A stretch of DNA of 22,773 nt from a virus. The notes below the pieces were generated by a model, which was given only the letters and a program-made list of their open reading frames with translations, ran no database searches and was not told where the DNA came from. The position numbers were made by a program, and so were the translations under genes. The number at the start of each line of letters is the position of its first letter. Positions within the stretch are counted from its first letter, which is position 1. The stretch is taken from the UHGV virus genome UHGV-0256221. One strand, 5' to 3'. Positions 1-18,314 of this stretch are shown in pieces.

Positions 1-204
1 AATTGATACCACGCCAGCCTCCGCAAACCTCCGACAAAAACACCTCAAGATCCCCATCAAATCAGCCTTTCCAAAAATTATACTGTTTGCATGTACAGTC
101 AACCTACGACATCATAAGTCATGGTTTTTGTGTCCACCAGCGCGTCCATATCCTATGATGGACACATAACCTCCCGTTCTGATGGACACACGCAGGGACA
201 AATC

Positions 205-1434
205 ATGGCTATTTCAGATAGTTATCTAAAGTCGTGCCTTGGGCGCGAACGAGACAAAGTTGAAGAAAAGGCAGACCGTGATGGTCTGTGGGTACGCATC
301 TCTAAAAAGGGGGCCGTTACTTTTTTCTACCGATTCCGCTTCCTGGGCAAACAGGACAAGATGACGATCGGCAGCTATCCGGAGTTCGGATTAAAAGCCG
401 CGCGCGATGAAGTCGCTAAGTGGGCCGCCATACTTGCCCGTGGCGAAAACCCACGGATCCGGCAAAGCCTCGACAAAGCCAAGATTAATAGGCAGTACAC
501 CTTCGAAGAGCTGTTTCGAGAATGGCATTCGATGGTGTGTGTTCAGAAAGAAACGGCAGGGCAGATTTTACGTACATTCGAATTGCACGTTTTCCCCAAG
601 CTTGGTAAATACCCTGCGCATCAGCTCACGCTGCATAACTGGCTCACTGTCCTTGACCGATTGGCCCAGGGGTACAGCGAGATCACCCGGCGCGTAATAA
701 GCAACGGCAAGCAGTGCTACTCTTGGGCAGTAAAACGCCAATTACTTGAGGTGAATCCTCTGTCTGAAATGTCAGGCCGTGACTTCGGTATTCAGAAACA
801 AATGGGGGAGCGAACTCTTGACCGTAATGAATTAGCTATGGTCTGGCGTGCTATCGACGATTCTCGCCTTATTGAGCGAAACAAGATCCTCTATAAATTA
901 TGCCTGATATGGGCGTGCAGGGTTGGAGAACTGCGGCAGGCAGAAACCGCGCATTTCGATTTCGAAGAAGGGATCTGGACCGTGCCATGGGAAAACCATA
1001 AGACGGGGCGGAAGAGTAAGAAACCGATAATCCGTCCAATTATTCCTGAAATGCTTCCGCTGATACAACGAGCCATTGAGCTGGCGCCGGGCCGCTTTGT
1101 TTTCTCAAAATATGAAGACAAGCCGATGAGCGAGGGCTTCCACATGAGCATCAGCAGTAACCTGGTCAAGTTCATGCTGAAGGCGTACAACGAGCAGGTG
1201 CCGCACTTCACTATTCACGATCTGCGCAGGACTGCGCGAACTAATTTTTCTGACCTGACAGAACCACATATAGCAGAGATCATGCTGGGGCATAAGTTGC
1301 CGGGTGTATGGTCTGTCTATGACAAGTATTCGTATGTAGAGGAAATGCGGGAGGCTTACGGTAAGTGGTGGGCCCGACTGATGAGCATCGTCGAGCCCGA
1401 TGTTTTAGAGTTCACGCCGCGTCAGGTCGGGTAA
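205..1434 (+). CDS. int: Tyrosine integrase, P4-like
   Basis: ORF 121..1434; N-terminus resembles P4-type integrase arm-binding domain (GLWVRISKKGAVTFFYRFRF), C-terminal catalytic-type motifs (HDLRRTARTNFSDL ... YSYVEEMREAYGKWW). Start refined to in-frame ATG at 205 (MAISD...). Confidence 0.85.
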   Translation: MAISDSYLKSCLGRERDKVEEKADRDGLWVRISKKGAVTFFYRFRFLGKQDKMTIGSYPEFGLKAARDEVAKWAAILARGENPRIRQSLDKAKINRQYTFEELFREWHSMVCVQKETAGQILRTFELHVFPKLGKYPAHQLTLHNWLTVLDRLAQGYSEITRRVISNGKQCYSWAVKRQLLEVNPLSEMSGRDFGIQKQMGERTLDRNELAMVWRAIDDSRLIERNKILYKLCLIWACRVGELRQAETAHFDFEEGIWTVPWENHKTGRKSKKPIIRPIIPEMLPLIQRAIELAPGRFVFSKYEDKPMSEGFHMSISSNLVKFMLKAYNEQVPHFTIHDLRRTARTNFSDLTEPHIAEIMLGHKLPGVWSVYDKYSYVEEMREAYGKWWARLMSIVEPDVLEFTPRQVG

Positions 1435-9992: not shown

Positions 9993-10676
9993 TTACAATC
10001 GGTTATACTTTATTGATTCATGAATCAATGCCTTACCCATTACGTAGAGTTGATCCTGATTACCTTCGTTAATGTACCACTTCTCATAAGCTGAGTTATC
10101 AGACAAAACTGCCAACCTATCGCCCTGCATCTGCAAGCGCTTCACATGGAAATGTTGTCCGAAAACGAACGCATAAACACCGTCGACCTTGAAGTTTCTT
10201 ACAGAAATATCGAAAAACAATCTGTCACCAGACTGTATAGTTGGACACATGCTGTCGCCATCGACCGTCATTACTTTTACGTCTTCCTGAGAACGATTTC
10301 CGAAGAGTGAACGAGCGTGTTCGGTTGTGAACTCAATGGCGTGTAGAACCTCAACAAACTCAGAAATCATGAAAGAACCTGGCCCCGCGCTAAATGTCAG
10401 GTCAAGTACGTCAACTCTGAATATGTTTGAGTCTTTTTTTGTCGCGGTAATGGGAGGCGGTAGCTGGCCATCGTTACGCATCGGTCCGGATCCCGTGGAA
10501 AGCCATTCAGGGCGAACATTGAGAACAGAAGCTATCTCGACCGTTTTTCTTGAGCTTGATGCACCATTTAGCAGCTTGTTAACACTTGACTGTGCCATGC
10601 CAACTGCCTTAGCTAGCTTGCCCTGTGTATAACCCGCCTCATTCATTGCGCGATCTAATCGCTCAGAAAAACTCAT
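9993..10676 (-). CDS. CI-like repressor (N-terminal HTH, C-terminal S24 LexA-like peptidase domain)
   Basis: 227 aa; HTH (YTQGKLAKAVGMAQSSVNKLL); S24 motifs (GDSMCPT, KR); divergent from the cro-like gene across an operator-rich region. Confidence 0.85.
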   Translation of the reverse strand: MSFSERLDRAMNEAGYTQGKLAKAVGMAQSSVNKLLNGASSSRKTVEIASVLNVRPEWLSTGSGPMRNDGQLPPPITATKKDSNIFRVDVLDLTFSAGPGSFMISEFVEVLHAIEFTTEHARSLFGNRSQEDVKVMTVDGDSMCPTIQSGDRLFFDISVRNFKVDGVYAFVFGQHFHVKRLQMQGDRLAVLSDNSAYEKWYINEGNQDQLYVMGKALIHESIKYNRL

Positions 10677-10707
10677 TAAAGATACCCCCTAATAACCTTC
10701 ATAAATA

Positions 10708-10778
10708 TTATCGCCACAGCGATTAATAAGCAAAAAATCGCATAGGCGATTGACATTCGTTAAAGCGATAAACATAAT
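10708..10778. promoter_or_regulatory. OR operator cluster with PR (and presumed divergent PRM)
   Basis: Three ATCGC-N4-GCGAT elements (about 10710-10723, 10737-10750, weaker 10756-10769); PR -35 TTGACA (10750-10755), 17-bp spacer, -10 CATAAT (10773-10778). Confidence 0.6.
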
Positions 10779-10805
10779 CAACCTAAATTGATAGAAGGAG
10801 CGATT

Positions 10806-11036
10806 ATGAAAAACCCTGCTGTAGAAAAAGCGATTGCAATCGCCGGTAGTCAGAAAGAGCTAGCGAAGCGATGTGGTAAGGCCCAATCCACGGTCTGTGA
10901 CTGGTTAAATGGGAAAAAACAAATCTCCCCGATCCATGTTCCTGTTTTGGTAAAGGCAAGCGAAGGACAGATTCAAGCTCATGAATTCCGTCCCGACCTT
11001 CCTGAATTGTTTCCGCATCCACATTCAGCCGCCTGA
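10806..11036 (+). CDS. Cro-like / YdaS-family HTH regulator
   Basis: ORF 10788..11036; ATG at 10806 with GAAGGAG RBS; small HTH protein (SQKELAKRCGKAQSTVCDWLNG) transcribed from PR. Confidence 0.7.
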   Translation: MKNPAVEKAIAIAGSQKELAKRCGKAQSTVCDWLNGKKQISPIHVPVLVKASEGQIQAHEFRPDLPELFPHPHSAA

Positions 11037-11067
11037 CCGGCGGCGCTAACCATCAAGGGAAAGCACT

Positions 11068-11607
11068 ATGCAATCACTTACGTTTTACCAGGATACAGGA
11101 TTGCCGCAGCAGGCGGTGATAAATCGTGCTCAAGCGTGCAAGGGACCTAGCCATGAAGATATTCGTGATGCCGTTCGCTCATGGGCGGGTGTAGATGGTC
11201 AGGATGTCGTTTCTGCTCTGATCATCGAAGAGTACCAGGCGCAGGGTGGTGATGACATCACTTTCCCTGATGATCTCTGCCGAAAGCGCCAGAAGCTGTT
11301 TCGCTTCCTGGACAACCACTTCAACAGCGAGCGTTACCGCGAGAACGTCCGCCAGCTGACTCCGGCAATCCTCGCTGTCTTGCCGATTGTGTACCGCAGT
11401 CGCCTGCTGCCAGAAGACAACATCATGGCTCGCCTGGCACGTATGGAGAAAGAAACCAGCGAAGCAAAGATTGCCGTCGCAATGGATGCGCCACGCCATC
11501 AAAAGCTGAAAGAGTTGAGCGAGGGGATCGTGGAGATGTATCGCGTTGACCCTGGGTTAACCGGTCCACTGATGGAGATGGTGCAGATGATGCTGGGGGC
11601 TATATGA
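11068..11607 (+). CDS. YdaT-like protein in the CII position
   Basis: 179 aa directly after the cro-like gene; PAILAVLP segment resembles Rac YdaT (from memory). Confidence 0.5.
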   Translation: MQSLTFYQDTGLPQQAVINRAQACKGPSHEDIRDAVRSWAGVDGQDVVSALIIEEYQAQGGDDITFPDDLCRKRQKLFRFLDNHFNSERYRENVRQLTPAILAVLPIVYRSRLLPEDNIMARLARMEKETSEAKIAVAMDAPRHQKLKELSEGIVEMYRVDPGLTGPLMEMVQMMLGAI

Positions 11608-11691
11608 CCGGTTCAAAAATGGCGAAAGCCGCGGTGCGCGAACACCAACGGCTTTCAGGTGCAAAAACAGTGCGTAATTGCGGAGAACAGT

Positions 11692-12600
11692 ATGTCAAAC
11701 ACCGCTGAAATAATCAATTTCCCAAATAAAACCGAACAACCGGGAGGTCGTATGGCCGACCTGTCGAACGGGTATACCAAGGTCGCTAACGAGATCCAAC
11801 AGCTTAAGCCTCGCCTGAGACTGTCAGGCCGGGAATGGCAATGTTTTGAGGCGGTGATCTGGCTTACCTACGGCTGGAACAAGAAACAGGACCGCGTGAC
11901 AAATACGGTTATTGCCGAGCTTACGGGCCTGAGCGATACGCATGTATCGGACGCGCTCAAGTCTCTCGCAGAACGCAAAATCATCTTTTCACAGAAGCAG
12001 GGCATGATGAAAATCGTCGGTGTAAACACTGACCTTTCAGCATGGATTTTAGACAAACCGGAAACGGGAAGAAAATTCCCGAAAACGGGAAAATCCTTCC
12101 CGAAATCAGGAATAACCTTCCCGAAAACGGTAGACACCCAATACAAGAACAAGAACAGTATTAAAAGATCTTCGTCCGAGAATTCTGACGAATCCTCTGA
12201 CGCACGTCTGAAGAAATTTTTATCAACTCATCCTGAAGCTGCGGTCTACACACCATCCGGTGCGAAGTGGGGCTCTGCTGAAGACCTCAAGACAGCTAAG
12301 TGGATTTCCTCCAGGGTGAAGCTGATTAACCCAACCTGCAAAGCCCCGGACATGACCTCCTGGTCTAACACTGTTCGCCTGATGCGCCAGATAGACAACC
12401 GGTCGCACCAGGACATCTGCGCGCTGTATGACTGGGCTAGCAAACACCACTTCTGGCAGACCAACATCCTGAGTCCCGAAAGCCTGCGTAAGCAGTGGGA
12501 CAAGCTGACAATGCAACGCAACGCTGGTGGTGAGCAACGCACCGGAAAGCCAGATCTGGACTTCAACAACACTGACTGGGCCTATGGGGTGATGCCATGA
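11692..12600 (+). CDS. O: Replication initiator O (lambda O-like)
   Basis: ORF 11659..12600; start refined to ATG 11692 (MSNTAEIINFPN, GGAG RBS); N-terminus aligns with lambda O; ori iterons inside the gene; stop overlaps the P start. Confidence 0.8.
   Translation: MSNTAEIINFPNKTEQPGGRMADLSNGYTKVANEIQQLKPRLRLSGREWQCFEAVIWLTYGWNKKQDRVTNTVIAELTGLSDTHVSDALKSLAERKIIFSQKQGMMKIVGVNTDLSAWILDKPETGRKFPKTGKSFPKSGITFPKTVDTQYKNKNSIKRSSSENSDESSDARLKKFLSTHPEAAVYTPSGAKWGSAEDLKTAKWISSRVKLINPTCKAPDMTSWSNTVRLMRQIDNRSHQDICALYDWASKHHFWQTNILSPESLRKQWDKLTMQRNAGGEQRTGKPDLDFNNTDWAYGVMP
12055..12180. repeat. ori-lambda-like origin: four iterons at 21-bp spacing plus AT-rich tract
   Basis: AAACCGGAAACGGGAA, TTCCCGAAAACGGGAA, TTCCCGAAATCAGGAA, TTCCCGAAAACGGTAG starting near 12055, 12076, 12097, 12118; followed by caatacaagaacaagaacagtattaaaagatc. 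Confidence 0.7.
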
Positions 12601-13286
12601 AATCTCTTGCAGAGCAGATGCGCAACCACGACCGCGAGCAGATGAGCCGCATGGCCCATAACCTGCCAGAACAGTACCAGGAGCGTGCACCGGTCGAGCA
12701 GGTTGCGCAGGTATTCAACAAGCTGTTCAACGAGCTGCGCGCCGCGTTCCCGGCCAGCATGGCGAACTTCCGCAGTCAGGACGACCTGAACGAATTCCGC
12801 CGTCAGTGGCTGCTGGCGTTTCAGGAGAACGGGATCCACTCAATGGCCCAAGTCGATGCTGGTATGCGCATTGCCCGCCGCCAGGAGCGTCCATTCCTGC
12901 CGTCGCCGGGCCAGTTCGTAGCATGGTGCAAACAGAGTGGCGGGGCGCTGGGTATCACCGTTGACCAGGTGATCGCCGAATACTGGGACTGGCGTAACCG
13001 TTCGTTCGAATTCACATCCAGTGAGCAATTCCCTTGGTCGAAGCCGGTCATGTACCACATCTGCGTCGAACTGCGCCACCGCAGCACAGAGCGCCAGTTA
13101 ACGCATGGTGAACTTGAGCGCGAAGCTGGCGATCTGCTGGATATGTGGGAGAAGCGTGTCACTGAGGGTAAGCCTGTGCCGCCGGTACGCCGGGCAATTG
13201 CAGCACCTGCCGCCGAGCATGGTCCTACGCCGATCCAGCTGCTTAAGGCGAAGTACAACCGCAACAAGTCGAACGGGATGGTGTGA
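12597..13286 (+). CDS. P: Replication protein P (helicase loader, lambda P-like)
   Basis: 229 aa; N-terminal half closely parallels lambda P as recalled (EQM..R.A.N.PEQY, VAQ, RRQ.RPFLPSPGQFVAWC). Confidence 0.85.
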   Translation: MKSLAEQMRNHDREQMSRMAHNLPEQYQERAPVEQVAQVFNKLFNELRAAFPASMANFRSQDDLNEFRRQWLLAFQENGIHSMAQVDAGMRIARRQERPFLPSPGQFVAWCKQSGGALGITVDQVIAEYWDWRNRSFEFTSSEQFPWSKPVMYHICVELRHRSTERQLTHGELEREAGDLLDMWEKRVTEGKPVPPVRRAIAAPAAEHGPTPIQLLKAKYNRNKSNGMV

Positions 13287-13287
13287 G

Positions 13288-13629
13288 ATGGCCATAACAA
13301 TTCGTGAGCAACTGCTGGCAGCACTGCGTAATAACCCAGGGCTTAACTCCGCGCTACTGGCCTCAATGGTTGGCATGACCAGCAAAAAGATATCGGGAAC
13401 GATTAGCGCACTGATGGCCGATGGGTTGATTTCCTGTGAAGGCCGCTATGGCCAGCGTCTGTATAGCCTGACCAGTTACGGAATGCGCTATGCAGCTGAC
13501 ACAGTACCAGGCAGGAAGATTGGCACGACGAAGTTAATTCAGCGGACGGACACAAACGTGATCTGCCAGGAGTGCCGCAATAGCGCGGTGATGAAACGAA
13601 TTTTAAGCGTATACGGGGTGAGAGCATGA
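13288..13629 (+). CDS. Hypothetical winged-helix-like protein
   Basis: ATG at 13288 (MAITIREQLLAALRNNPGL); the longer 13105 ORF overlaps P and is rejected. Confidence 0.45.
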   Translation: MAITIREQLLAALRNNPGLNSALLASMVGMTSKKISGTISALMADGLISCEGRYGQRLYSLTSYGMRYAADTVPGRKIGTTKLIQRTDTNVICQECRNSAVMKRILSVYGVRA

Positions 13630-15661: not shown

Positions 15662-15816
15662 GAGAAATCATCGTTGATAACTTTGCCGGCGGCGGCGGGG
15701 CGAGCACGGGCATTGAGCTGGCGATCGGTCGTAGTGTGGATATTGCGATTAACCACGACCCGAACGCTGTTGCGATGCACACTACGAACCACCCGGATAC
15801 ACTGCACTACTGGTGA
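15658..15816 (+). CDS. C5-methyltransferase N-terminal segment (motif I), ends at an in-frame stop
   Basis: GTG at 15658; translation (M)REIIVDNFAGGGGASTG...NHPDTLHYW-stop carries the AdoMet motif I; the rest of the enzyme continues in another frame. Confidence 0.5.
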   Translation: MREIIVDNFAGGGGASTGIELAIGRSVDIAINHDPNAVAMHTTNHPDTLHYW

Positions 15817-17374
15817 GACCTTCGAGGCTTTCTGCGGCATGCTATCCGGTGGTATTCCTGCCGGTCATCCGGCGCTGGCGGAGTGCTGCGAGTTCCTGGG
15901 TATTACTGCCGACGGCGAACTGGCGCAGCAACTGGTGGCCGGGCTGGGTTACGCTGTTGATCATCGTGAGCTGCGCGCCTGCGACTTTGGCGCACCGACC
16001 ATCAGGAAGCGTTTCTTCATGGTAATGCGTTGCGATGGTATGCCGGTGACCTGGCCGGACCCGACCCACGGCGACCCGAAATCTCCAGCTGTGCAGAGTG
16101 GAAAGTTGGCGCCATGGCGTACAGCTGCGGAGTGTATCGACTGGACCATTCCGGCACCGTCGATATTCGACCGCAAAAAGCCACTGGCTGAAAATACGCT
16201 CAAACGCATCGCTCGTGGCATCCAGCGGTTTGTGATCGAGAGCGCGTCGCCGTTCATCGTCAAGTGCAACCACACGACGACCAAAGGGAAATACGACTGT
16301 TTCCGTGGGCAGGCGCTGAGAGAGCCTCTGCAGACCATTACGAAAACCCACGGCTACGCGTTAGCCGTTCCACACCTGACAAAGTTCCGTACTGGCGCAA
16401 CCGGGCAGCCCGTTACCGAACCTGTGCCCACTGTCACAGCTGGGACGTCGGTGCGCCCGGGCGGCAATGGTCATGCTCTTGGGTTGGTTGAGGCGGCGAT
16501 CACTCCGTTCCTGGCTGGCAATGGGGGCAGTGAATATCAGGCGAAGCCGCGCCCACTAAATAAACCCGCTCACACTATTCTGAAGCAATCGCGCAGTTGC
16601 CTGGTGGCTCCGGTTATTGCCCGGCAGTTTGGTGCCAGTATCGGCCACCGGGCAGACGAACCGAGCGCAACTATCACCGCGGGCGGTGGCGGTAAATCAC
16701 AGCTGGTGACGCCAACGCTGATTCAGATGGGTTATGGCGAACGTCCAGGGCAAGAGCCGCGTGTGCTGAAACTTGATAGCCCGCTTGGCACGGTCACCGC
16801 TGGCGGTAATAAATTTGCGGTTGCCGCTGCACATCTCATTAAACATTACGGCGGGAATTACCAGGGCGCCGGAGTGGGGATGGATGAGCCGATGCATTCT
16901 GTGACCACCGTCGATCACCATGCTGTGGTTGCTTCTCACCTGGTTAAATTGCGCGGAACCTGCCGGGATGGACAACGCACCGACGCGCCAATGCCGACTG
17001 TCACGGCTGGTGGCCTGCATGTAGGGAACGTTGAAACTCATCTTGCCGTAGATGAGTACGACGAAGAACGCGCGCAACAAACGCTGGCGTTCCTGCGCAA
17101 ATACTGTGGTGAGGATTGTACCGGGTTGGTGGTGATCGATGGCGTGACGTATCGCATTGTTGATATTGGTATGCGCATGTTACAGCCGCGCGAACTGTAC
17201 CGGGCGCAGGGCTTCCCGGACTGGTACATCATCGACCAGGACTACCGGGGCAAGAAGTACGCGAAGGATAAACAGGTTGCCCGCTGCGGTAACGCGGTGC
17301 CACCGCCGTTCGCTGAAGCGCTGGTGCGTGCTAATTTGCCGGAACTATGCCAATCGAAACAAATAGCGGCTTAG
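15674..17374 (+). CDS. DNA (cytosine-5)-methyltransferase-like protein, main body in shifted frame; no canonical PCQ seen
   Basis: 566-aa ORF (TTG start is an over-extension) with motif VIII-like LRACDFGAPTIRKRFF, five P-x-x-T-V-T-A-G-G repeats, C-terminal motif IX/X-like QPRELYRAQGFPDWY and CGNAVPPPFAEAL. Confidence 0.55.
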   Translation: MITLPAAAGRARALSWRSVVVWILRLTTTRTLLRCTLRTTRIHCTTGETFEAFCGMLSGGIPAGHPALAECCEFLGITADGELAQQLVAGLGYAVDHRELRACDFGAPTIRKRFFMVMRCDGMPVTWPDPTHGDPKSPAVQSGKLAPWRTAAECIDWTIPAPSIFDRKKPLAENTLKRIARGIQRFVIESASPFIVKCNHTTTKGKYDCFRGQALREPLQTITKTHGYALAVPHLTKFRTGATGQPVTEPVPTVTAGTSVRPGGNGHALGLVEAAITPFLAGNGGSEYQAKPRPLNKPAHTILKQSRSCLVAPVIARQFGASIGHRADEPSATITAGGGGKSQLVTPTLIQMGYGERPGQEPRVLKLDSPLGTVTAGGNKFAVAAAHLIKHYGGNYQGAGVGMDEPMHSVTTVDHHAVVASHLVKLRGTCRDGQRTDAPMPTVTAGGLHVGNVETHLAVDEYDEERAQQTLAFLRKYCGEDCTGLVVIDGVTYRIVDIGMRMLQPRELYRAQGFPDWYIIDQDYRGKKYAKDKQVARCGNAVPPPFAEALVRANLPELCQSKQIAA

Positions 17375-17802: not shown

Positions 17803-18060
17803 ATGTCTAGCCATAACATCGCAGCAAAATCAAAAGAAGAACAGGACAAGGTGAACGTTGACCTTGCTGCTTCTGGTGTGGCGTACAAAGAACGCCTAAA
17901 CATGCCAGTTATCGCTGAGCAGGTGGCCCGCGAGCAGCCAGAGAATCTTCGCGAATACTTCATGGAGCGCGTTCGTTACTACCGCGAGCAGAGCCTGACG
18001 CTGCCGAAAGCATCCGATTCGCGTTATCTGGATATGGCTGCGCAGAATGAGAAGAAGTAA
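17803..18060 (+). CDS. Hypothetical small protein (85 aa), first of a coupled pair
   Basis: GAGGGGGA RBS; TATAAT about 30 bp upstream; stop overlaps next start (TAATGG). Confidence 0.5.
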
Positions 18061-18314
18061 TGGGCTGCCTCATTGTAAGCGGAATCAAGTTTTACGTTCT
18101 GGCAGAAGGTGACTCATATCCCGATCCGCATAATGATAATCGGTATGTCGGTGCATATGCCGTATTCCCGTTTGAGGGAAAGTGGGTTGCTCAGAAGTAT
18201 TTCAGGGGAGGACGCTGGAGTGATATCACCGAACGCCGATTTAACACTGAAAACGAGGCATTCAACTTCACATACGAATACGCGTTTCTCCCGGAAAACC
18301 GCTACAAATATTAA
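18060..18314 (+). CDS. Hypothetical small protein (84 aa), aromatic-rich
   Basis: Translationally coupled to the upstream gene. Confidence 0.5.
   Translation: MGCLIVSGIKFYVLAEGDSYPDPHNDNRYVGAYAVFPFEGKWVAQKYFRGGRWSDITERRFNTENEAFNFTYEYAFLPENRYKY

What the first reader, a model, noticed from the sequence alone, without database searches (positions are those of the whole stretch)
12055..12180. Replication origin embedded in the O gene: four 21-bp-spaced iterons plus an AT-rich tract
Four iterons (consensus TTCCCGAAAACGGGAA, one a perfect palindrome) with 21-bp periodicity are followed by an AT-rich stretch, all inside the O reading frame where they encode the repeated FPKTGKSFPKSGITFPKT peptide. 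This is the lambda ori arrangement and locates the prophage origin.
Basis: partly seen in the sequence, partly recalled or inferred. Interest (0 to 1): 0.4.

Follow-up and report, generated by a model that had tools for sequence, protein, structure and literature searches.

The report
Phage phi80 replication origin, inside gene O
This is the well-known replication origin of phage phi80 (four initiator-binding repeats plus an A-rich unwinding tract inside the initiator gene), carried base-for-base unchanged by a mosaic lambda-like prophage, so it is a correct but ordinary finding.

Summary
Four dyad-symmetric 16-bp repeats start at 12055/6, 12076, 12097 and 12118, exactly 21 bp apart. They are followed by an A-rich tract (12134-12170) and a conserved right arm (12171-12201). 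All of this lies in frame inside a lambda-O-type initiator gene (11692-12600), which is followed by a lambda-P-type helicase-loader gene (12597-13286).

Window 12022-12240 is 100% identical to phage phi80 (and to mEp237). The four repeats coincide with the four "gp15" protein-binding sites annotated in the phi80 GenBank record. The O protein is 297/301 identical to phi80 gp15, and P is 216/229 identical to gp14.

In 56 distinct relatives fetched through the N-terminal domain alone, iteron third-codon positions vary far less than those of the flanking coding sequence. The 5-bp spacers vary freely. So the repeats are constrained as DNA, not only as peptide.

- The "perfect palindrome" is a perfect 6-bp dyad around a non-palindromic AAAA.
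- Iteron 1 is degenerate.
- The tract is only 68% A+T but extremely A-skewed.
- The conserved origin runs about 20 bp past 12180.

This element is already known, and interest is low.

The parts
10750..10778 (+). pR-like early rightward promoter (TTGACA-17-CATAAT) that would transcribe cro-like, cII-like, O and P and pass through the origin
   Evidence: Consensus scan, 11/12 match. It lies between the divergent S24 repressor gene (9993-10676, minus strand) and the YdaS-type cro-like gene. Its role in activating the origin is inferred by analogy with lambda (PMC5043065).
11692..12600 (+). O-type replication initiator gene (homologue of phi80 gene 15). The N-terminal DNA-binding domain covers codons 1-~120, the origin-encoding linker ~121-170, and the C-terminal domain the rest.
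   Evidence: Pfam Phage_rep_O 5.9e-25 over residues 31-129 of the longer GTG-start ORF. 297/301 identical to phi80 gp15 and 39% to lambda O. The ATG at 11692 with GGAG upstream is the start annotated in phi80 and mEp237.
12055..12070 (.). Iteron 1 (AAACCGGAAACGGGAA). The left half-site is degenerate and the right half CGGGAA is intact.
   Evidence: In 21-bp register with the others. Equals the phi80 'gp15' site at 36663-36677. Conserved in PHB10, Meifeng and IMG/VR relatives.
12076..12091 (.). Iteron 2 (TTCCCGAAAACGGGAA), with perfect 6-bp dyad arms
   Evidence: Equals the phi80 'gp15' site at 36683-36698.
12097..12112 (.). Iteron 3 (TTCCCGAAATCAGGAA)
   Evidence: Equals the phi80 'gp15' site at 36704-36719.
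12118..12133 (.). Iteron 4 (TTCCCGAAAACGGTAG). The right half-site is degenerate.
   Evidence: Equals the phi80 'gp15' site at 36725-36739.
12134..12170 (+). A-rich, strand-asymmetric tract (ACACCCAATACAAGAACAAGAACAGTATTAAAAGATC): the presumed DNA-unwinding element
   Evidence: 68% A+T and 54% A, in the top ~0.013% of 30-35-nt windows for A content. It aligns with the lambda AT-rich tract. Third-codon positions are conserved in relatives: 2/12 variable versus 73/121 in the N-terminal coding region, p = 0.005. Its unwinding role is inferred from lambda (PMC7466680, PMC5043065).
12171..12201 (.). Conserved right arm with a hyphenated dyad: TTCGTC (12171-12176), AGAATTCT (12179-12186), GACGAA (12187-12192), then TCCTCTGAC
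   Evidence: Near-identical to lambda TTCGTCAGAGAATTCTGGCGAATCCTCTGAC. Also shared by Klebsiella phage ST16-OXA48phi5.2, whose iterons are different.
12597..13286 (+). P-type helicase-loader gene (homologue of phi80 gene 14), overlapping the O stop codon
   Evidence: Pfam Phage_lambda_P 4.3e-50. 216/229 identical to phi80 gp14 and 47% to lambda P.

Best explanation
Window 12055-12201 is the origin of bidirectional (theta) replication of a lambda-like prophage, and specifically the phage phi80 type of origin.

The proposed mechanism is as follows:
1. After induction, transcription from the pR-like promoter produces the O-type initiator and the P-type helicase loader.
2. Dimers of the initiator's N-terminal winged-helix domain bind the four dyad-symmetric iterons. 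The iterons sit exactly two helical turns apart, so they lie on one face of the DNA.
3. The DNA wraps into an 'O-some'. On supercoiled DNA this destabilises the adjacent A-rich tract.
4. The initiator's C-terminal domain recruits the P-DnaB complex. Host chaperones release DnaB and replication starts.

Because the site lies inside the initiator gene, the 21-bp (7-codon) repeats also encode the repeated FPKTG peptide of the inter-domain linker.

Shown here: the sequence anatomy, its identity to phi80, the homology of both proteins, and constraint on the iterons and A-rich tract at the DNA level.

Inferred from lambda biochemistry: binding, bending, unwinding and DnaB loading.
For: Identity to phi80: 219 bases (12022-12240) are identical to phi80 and mEp237. 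The four repeats equal the four annotated gp15-binding sites of phi80. O is 99% and P 94% identical to phi80 gp15 and gp14, and both pass the Pfam gathering scores for Phage_rep_O and Phage_lambda_P.

The repeats exceed chance.

Same order of parts and same place in the gene as annotated lambda ori (iterons beginning at codon 116 in lambda and 121 here), with a near-identical right arm.

DNA-level constraint, three sequences: iteron columns 9/64 variable versus spacers 11/15 (Fisher p = 1.5e-5). Third-codon positions 3/20 variable in iterons versus 73/121 in the N-terminal domain (p = 1.8e-4).

DNA-level constraint, 56 distinct IMG/VR, PHB10 and Meifeng sequences fetched through residues 1-120 only: third-codon positions 8/20 versus 96/121 (p = 6e-4), and spacers 13/15 variable.

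Co-variation of initiator and site: other O N-terminal domain types carry different dyad repeats in the same place, each followed by an A-rich tract. Examples are 4A7 TTACCCGAATCAGGTAA x5, mEp213 ATTAGCCAAGTCGGCTAA x4, Pseudoalteromonas Y3 TTACCCGAAAACGGGTAA x5 and lambda ATCCCTCAAAACGAGGGA x4.

Mechanism in lambda: PMC7466680, PMC6022878 and PMC5043065.
Against: I could not read the primary phi80 papers, so I do not know whether the GenBank 'gp15' sites rest on footprinting or on analogy.

The 100% identity to phi80 is not in itself evidence of constraint. Nearly the whole O gene is identical (2 mismatches in 11689-12515), and the differences cluster from 12516 onward.

The A-rich tract is less A+T-rich (68%) than lambda's (79%).

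Only the early half of the prophage is in the window, so whether the prophage is inducible is unknown.
Confidence: 0.95

Rival explanations
1. The 21-bp repeats are only a coding repeat. On this view they are a 7-residue peptide repeat (FPKTGxx) in a flexible linker of the O protein, with no cis-acting DNA function, and the true origin lies elsewhere.
For: The period is exactly 7 codons and yields a visible peptide repeat. Copy number changes in relatives are always in frame, at +21 or -63 bp.
Against: Each unit is an inverted repeat, which a peptide repeat does not require. Third-codon positions inside the units are conserved while the spacers change at first and second codon positions, so the peptide is free to vary where the DNA is. 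In lambda the spacing is 20/24/23, not a multiple of 3, so no peptide repeat exists there, yet the annotated O-binding iterons occupy the same place. The sites are annotated as gp15-binding in phi80.
Confidence: 0.02
2. The sequence is a genuine phi80-type origin but is a silent relic. On this view the prophage is defective, and the origin never fires in this host.
For: The same 219 bp persist in laboratory strains such as DH5alpha, which from my own knowledge carries a defective phi80 lacZdeltaM15 prophage remnant. Only the early half of the element is visible in the window.
Against: int, recT/recE, the S24 repressor, the cro-like and cII-like genes, O, P, Q, the lysozyme gene and the DUF2514 (spanin-like) gene are all intact ORFs with full-length family matches. 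O and P have no frameshifts or stop codons relative to phi80.
Confidence: 0.15
3. The hairpin-plus-T-run on the minus strand at 12091-12076 is an intrinsic terminator for antisense transcription rather than an initiator-binding site.
For: The consensus terminator scan lists it: a 6-bp stem, a 4-nt loop and a TTTTCTTCCC tail.
Against: It is simply iteron 2 read on the other strand together with the A-run of the spacer. The stem has only 6 pairs. Four such units at 21-bp spacing are not explained by a terminator, and no antisense promoter was found downstream.
Confidence: 0.01

Closest known systems
Replication origin of phage phi80 (genes 15 and 14; GenBank JX871397 and X13065), also carried by mEp237 and HK225
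   Same: 219 bases covering the four iterons, the A-rich tract and the right arm are identical. The four iterons coincide with the annotated gp15-binding sites. O is 297/301 and P 216/229 identical. The same origin is present at 99% identity or more in 105 of 5,426 complete E. coli genomes.
   Different: The surrounding prophage is a different mosaic. It has another repressor/cro pair (an S24 repressor of 227 aa and a YdaS-type cro) and RecE/RecT in place of phi80 exo/bet. The cII-O intergenic (oop-like) region is of the mEp237 type, not the phi80 type. There are 77 nucleotide differences from phi80 in 11682-13286, clustered in the 5 bases at 11684-11688 upstream of O, the last ~85 bases of O, and P.
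ori lambda (iterons ITN1-4 plus the AT-rich tract inside gene O; J02459 39034-39160)
   Same: The origin sits inside the initiator gene at the junction of the N- and C-terminal domains. It has four dyad-symmetric iterons with an A-rich centre (YCCC..AAAAC..GGG), then an A-rich strand-asymmetric tract, then a near-identical right arm, and a P-type loader gene lies downstream.
   Different: The iteron arms differ (TTCCCG/CGGGAA versus TCCCTC/GAGGGA). Spacing is exactly 21/21/21 here versus 20/24/23 in lambda, so only here does a peptide repeat appear. The tract is 68% versus 79% A+T. The O N-terminal domain is only about 33% identical. From the literature, lambda and phi80 initiators are origin-specific (Furth and Yates 1978, listed as reference 50 of PMC6022878).
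Iteron-regulated plasmid origins (F, P1, R6K, pSC101 type). The comparison rests on my general knowledge and was not tested here.
   Same: A replicon-encoded initiator binds an array of about 20-bp repeats phased with the helix, next to an A+T-rich unwinding element.
   Different: Plasmid iterons are usually direct repeats bound by Rep monomers, lie outside the rep gene, need DnaA, and control copy number through extra iteron arrays. Here the units are dyads (bound by dimers in lambda), lie inside the initiator gene, and the helicase arrives through a P-type loader. No second iteron array exists in the window or in phi80.

Membership tests
Lambdoid O/P-type origin (ori lambda / ori phi80 class) | The origin lies inside the initiator (O) gene, between the N-terminal DNA-binding domain and the C-terminal domain | tested here: met
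   The iterons begin at codon 121 of a 302-codon Phage_rep_O gene. The Pfam domain ends just upstream. In lambda the iterons begin at codon 116 of 299.
Lambdoid O/P-type origin (ori lambda / ori phi80 class) | An array of about four 16-19-bp dyad-symmetric iterons at roughly two-helical-turn spacing | tested here: met
   Four units at 21-bp spacing. Three are within 2 mismatches of the consensus, against 0 of 100 shuffles. Dyad arms match at 6/6, 5/6, 4/6 and 3/6 positions (my reading).
Lambdoid O/P-type origin (ori lambda / ori phi80 class) | An A+T-rich, strand-asymmetric tract immediately to the right of the iterons | tested here: met
   12134-12170 is 68% A+T and 54% A, in the top ~0.013% of 30-35-nt windows for A content. 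It aligns with the lambda tract.
Lambdoid O/P-type origin (ori lambda / ori phi80 class) | A conserved right arm (TTCGTC.GAGAATTCTG.CGAATCCTCTGAC) after the A-rich tract | tested here: met
   12171-12201 is near-identical to lambda and to Klebsiella phage ST16-OXA48phi5.2.
Lambdoid O/P-type origin (ori lambda / ori phi80 class) | A P-type helicase-loader gene directly downstream of O | tested here: met
   12597-13286: Phage_lambda_P 4.3e-50, 47% identical to lambda P.
Lambdoid O/P-type origin (ori lambda / ori phi80 class) | The iterons are constrained as DNA, and the iteron sequence tracks the initiator's N-terminal domain type | tested here: met
   Third-codon variability is 8/20 in iterons versus 96/121 in the N-terminal coding region (p = 6e-4), and spacers are 13/15 variable. 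Five other N-terminal domain types carry five other dyad repeats in the same place.
Lambdoid O/P-type origin (ori lambda / ori phi80 class) | The initiator binds the iterons, bends the DNA and opens the A-rich tract, and the origin supports autonomous replication | not testable with these tools
   Biochemical and genetic property. Demonstrated for lambda and Stx phages (PMC7466680, PMC5043065).
Lambdoid O/P-type origin (ori lambda / ori phi80 class) | Rightward transcription from pR passes through or near the origin (transcriptional activation) | tested here: inconclusive
   A strong promoter-like site lies at 10750-10778 in the right orientation and place, and no plus-strand terminator-like site was found between it and the origin. 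Transcription itself was not observed.
Phage phi80 origin specifically | Sequence identity with the phi80 origin and its annotated gp15-binding sites | tested here: met
   219/219 identical. The sites map one-to-one.

The most novel reading that the evidence does not exclude
The most novel reading not excluded concerns the isolated iteron-like dyad at 18165-18180 (minus strand TTCCCTCAAACGGGAA, 2 mismatches). It could be a real secondary binding site for the initiator, giving this mosaic prophage a titration or handcuffing control of the kind known from iteron plasmids but not from lambdoid phages. The site lies in a small unknown gene next to a Pol III theta (Hot-like) homologue. None of 100 shuffles gave such a match, and my analytic expectation is about 0.01 per window.
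Probability: 0.03. Interest if true: 0.4.

Novelty: already known. Interest (0 to 1): 0.07.

Why it matters
It fixes the position of the prophage's replication origin and assigns its replication module to the phi80 specificity type. That helps with annotation, with predicting replication compatibility or exclusion between co-resident lambdoid prophages, and with interpreting coverage peaks after induction. It adds nothing new to the biology of lambdoid origins. The element is identical to one that, as I recall, was sequenced in the late 1970s-80s, and it is present in about 2% of complete E. coli genomes, including common cloning strains.

Tried and rejected
- Rfam gathering-threshold scan of the whole window: no family, so the oop-like RNA could not be confirmed that way.
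- tRNA scan: none.
- PDB sequence search with the O protein: only a weak winged-helix match (MntR-like regulator, E 0.009). No solved initiator structure is available for comparison.
- Exact-protein look-ups for the 302-aa and 313-aa O products, to identify the source organism: not on record.
- Megablast of the whole window against complete E. coli genomes: best coverage 52%, so the exact prophage is not in that set.
- Primary phi80 genome paper (doi 10.1128/JB.01353-12, PMC3510586): not held. The searches found no accessible paper with direct gp15 footprinting.
- DnaA boxes (TTWTNCACA) near the origin: none in 10700-13400; the only one is at 10624, inside the repressor gene.
- The minus-strand terminator-like hit at iteron 2 was rejected as an artefact of the dyad plus the A-run.
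- The idea that extra iteron-like sites are a recurrent feature was rejected. The complete phi80 genome has only one 3-mismatch site outside the origin, against 0.55 expected. The gene holding the window's extra site has no diverged homologues to test conservation.
- One Pfam batch failed on a wrong-frame coordinate and was not repeated.

Full report
**1. What is in the sequence**

Reading 11700-12500 shows four related 16-bp units:
- 12055: AAACCGGAAACGGGAA
- 12076: TTCCCGAAAACGGGAA
- 12097: TTCCCGAAATCAGGAA
- 12118: TTCCCGAAAACGGTAG

They are separated by 5-bp spacers, so start-to-start spacing is exactly 21 bp. Tandem Repeats Finder reports a 21-bp array at 12058-12130 (3.5 copies, no indels). 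The repeat finder finds three 31-nt copies at 21/21 spacing and several inverted repeats within the array.

The consensus matches three times in the array within 2 mismatches. At up to 3 mismatches 0.19 matches are expected per window, and at up to 2 mismatches none of 100 shuffles gave any. The first unit has 4 mismatches and is recognised through register and conservation.

Each unit is a hyphenated dyad, TTCCCG-AAAA-CGGGAA. The centre is not self-complementary, so "perfect palindrome" is imprecise. The outer half-sites of units 1 and 4 are the degenerate ones.

**2. The rest of the origin**

Directly after unit 4 comes ACACCCAATACAAGAACAAGAACAGTATTAAAAGATC (12134-12170). It is 68% A+T and 54% A. 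A+T content is in the top 0.5-3% of equal-sized windows of the 22.8-kb window. A content is in the top ~0.013% for 30-35-nt windows (0.07% for 40 nt).

It is followed by TTCGTCCGAGAATTCTGACGAATCCTCTGAC (12171-12201), which contains a hyphenated dyad (TTCGTC ... AGAATTCT ... GACGAA).

**3. Coding context**

The array lies in frame in an ORF whose biological start is the ATG at 11692. GGAG lies upstream, and this is the start annotated in phi80 and mEp237. The ORF ends at 12600. It matches Pfam Phage_rep_O (5.9e-25) over the residues just before the repeats. The next ORF (12597-13286) matches Phage_lambda_P (4.3e-50). The repeats encode ...PETGRKFPKTGKSFPKSGITFPKTVDT....

Upstream are a divergent S24/HTH repressor gene, a strong promoter-like site (TTGACA-17-CATAAT, 10750-10778), a YdaS-type cro-like gene and a YdaT-type cII-like gene.

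The whole window runs from an integrase through RecT/RecE, the immunity region, O-P, a nin-like region, a Q antiterminator and lysis genes. This is the early half of a lambdoid prophage.

**4. Identity**

Megablast of O+P against phage records gives mEp237, phi80 and HK225 at about 95.5% over the full length. The phi80 record (JX871397) annotates gene 15 as "similar to lambda O" and gene 14 as "similar to lambda P". It also annotates four protein_bind features named gp15 inside gene 15.

With the offset window = locus + 8682, these four sites map to 12056-12070, 12076-12091, 12097-12112 and 12118-12132. These are the four units. Window 12022-12240 is 100% identical to phi80 and mEp237. O is 297/301 identical to gp15 and P is 216/229 identical to gp14.

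So the finding is the phi80 origin itself. The same 219 bp occur at 99% identity or more in 105 of 5,426 complete E. coli genomes, including DH5alpha. From my own knowledge, DH5alpha carries a phi80 lacZdeltaM15 prophage remnant.

The prophage as a whole is a different mosaic. No complete E. coli genome covers more than 52% of the window.

**5. Comparison with lambda**

The lambda record annotates four 18-bp "ori iteron" O-binding sites starting at codon 116 of O, spaced 20/24/23. They are ATCCCTCAAAACGAGGGA-type dyads followed by a 79% A+T, 62% A tract. After that comes TTCGTCAGAGAATTCTGGCGAATCCTCTGAC, almost the same right arm as here.

O is 39% and P 47% identical to the lambda proteins, and the N-terminal domain alone about 33%. 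The architecture is therefore the same. The recognition sequence, the exact spacing and the N-terminal domain differ. Because 21 bp is 7 codons, only the phi80 type shows a peptide repeat.

**6. Is the array constrained as DNA?**

The identity to phi80 cannot answer this. The window and phi80 differ at only 2 positions in 11689-12515, and the 77 differences cluster upstream of O, in the last ~85 bases of O and in P. That pattern indicates recent shared ancestry plus a recombination junction.

More distant carriers of the same N-terminal domain are informative. In PHB10 (87.5% identity) and Hafnia phage Meifeng (83%), iteron columns are 9/64 variable against 11/15 for the spacers (Fisher p = 1.5e-5). 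Third-codon positions are 3/20 variable in the iterons and 2/12 in the A-rich tract, against 73/121 in the N-terminal coding region (p = 1.8e-4 and 0.005).

To avoid conditioning on the repeats, I fetched IMG/VR loci using only residues 1-120 of O. That gave 408 relatives, of which 80 were kept. In 56 distinct sequences the third-codon contrast holds: 8/20 versus 96/121 (p = 6e-4). The spacers are 13/15 variable, including first and second codon positions.

The peptide is thus free to vary where the DNA is free, and the DNA is conserved at silent sites inside the units. This is what a cis-acting binding site predicts, and it argues against a mere coding repeat.

**7. Co-variation of initiator type and site**

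A tblastn search with the N-terminal domain finds several diverged types. In each, the DNA just downstream of the domain carries its own dyad repeats at about 19-29 bp spacing (mostly 20-24), followed by an A-rich tract:
- 4A7: TTACCCGAATCAGGTAA x5
- mEp213: ATTAGCCAAGTCGGCTAA x4 at 20/24/23
- Pseudoalteromonas phage Y3: TTACCCGAAAACGGGTAA x5 at 22
- Aeromonas phiARM81mr: a GGGT-AAAAAC-ACCC type
- FSL SP-016: CCCGAAA..GGGA at 22

A Klebsiella phage (ST16-OXA48phi5.2) joins an unrelated N-terminal domain and non-dyad 12-bp repeats to the same A-rich tract, right arm and C-terminal domain as the window. This places a module junction at the A-rich tract.

The pattern is consistent with the classical finding, known from lambda-phi80 hybrids, that the N-terminal part of O determines origin specificity. 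That finding is Furth and Yates 1978, listed as reference 50 in PMC6022878. I did not read the 1978 paper.

**8. Mechanism**

The literature I could read describes lambda and Stx phages. The origin sits in the middle of O. O dimers bind each iteron, and the bound array (the O-some) bends the DNA. On supercoiled DNA it opens the neighbouring A+T-rich tract of about 40 bp. The two iterons nearest the tract are enough in vitro. The N-terminal domain of O binds DNA and the C-terminal domain binds P, which brings DnaB. [quoted passage not shown]

I infer the same steps here. The exact 21-bp spacing puts all four sites on one helical face. By my own reading, A-runs recur about every 10-10.5 bp through the array, which would favour intrinsic bending as reported for lambda. 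None of these steps was or can be tested with these tools.

**9. Rivals**

- A pure coding repeat is contradicted by the dyad symmetry, the silent-site conservation and the lambda spacing.
- The minus-strand "terminator" at 12091-12076 is iteron 2 read backwards together with a spacer A-run.
- A silent origin in a defective prophage cannot be excluded. However, every early gene in the window is an intact ORF with a full-length family match.

**10. Verdict**

Both the observation and the interpretation are correct, with minor corrections. The element is the already-described phi80-type lambdoid origin, carried unchanged by a mosaic prophage. Novelty: already known. Interest: low.

Noticed in passing
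window 11613-11722, minus strand: Candidate oop-like antisense RNA between the cII-like gene and O. A promoter-like TTGATT-17-CATACT has its -10 element over the O start codon, as lambda pO does. It is followed by a strong hairpin (GAAAGCCGUUGGUG...CACCGCGGCUUUC) and a U-run (-30.8 kcal/mol, z = -3.3). phi80 annotates an 'M3 RNA, homolog of lambda oop' at the same place, but the sequence here is of the mEp237 type, not the phi80 type. There is no Rfam match.
   Followed up: partly
window 18165-18180, minus strand: A lone iteron-like dyad TTCCCTCAAACGGGAA, 2 mismatches from the consensus. None of 100 shuffles gave such a match, and my analytic expectation is about 0.01. It lies inside an 84-aa ORF of unknown function (18060-18314). 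That gene occurs in only 3 of 5,426 E. coli genomes, all identical, and in no phage record, so conservation cannot be tested. Complete phi80 has no comparable extra site. It is most likely chance.
   Followed up: partly
window 17803-18060, plus strand: An 85-aa ORF ([40 protein letters not shown]...). I infer it is the feature RefSeq names 'DNA polymerase III subunit theta' in the three E. coli genomes whose matches abut it. From memory it resembles the phage P1 Hot protein. So the prophage appears to encode a homologue of a host replisome subunit in its nin region.
   Followed up: no
L060 and L069 (IMG/VR relatives), origin region aligned to window 12055-12133: Natural copy-number variants of the iteron array. 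L060 has five iterons (a +21-bp duplication of unit 3). L069 has only two (a -63-bp deletion). Both changes are in frame, as expected from unequal exchange between 21-bp units. Whether the two-iteron origin works is unknown; two iterons suffice for lambda in vitro (PMC7466680).
   Followed up: no
L006 931-1959 (Klebsiella phage ST16-OXA48phi5.2 O gene), compared with window 12140-12930: This O gene has an unrelated N-terminal domain and non-dyad 12-bp repeats (GCCGCACATGAA; peptide AHEAAHEAAH). From the A-rich tract onward it is 75% identical to the window: same right arm, same C-terminal domain, and the start of P. This marks a recombination junction at the A-rich tract.
   Followed up: partly
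window 12516-13286, and 11608-11691: Differences from phi80 are clustered. There are 2 in 11689-12515 and about 70 from 12516 to 13286. The cII-O spacer switches to the mEp237 type upstream of 11689. These are mosaic junctions flanking the N-terminal-domain-plus-origin module.
   Followed up: partly
window 15674-17374, plus strand: A 566-aa ORF with a TTG start matches Pfam C-5 cytosine DNA methylase only over its last ~60 residues (profile positions 266-320 of 324). It may be a diverged, fused or truncated methyltransferase.
   Followed up: no
window 121-1434, plus strand: A tyrosine integrase gene (Arm-DNA-binding, central and catalytic domains) at the very start of the window, so a prophage end and attachment site probably lie within or just before the first ~120 bases. 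No tRNA gene is in the window.
   Followed up: no
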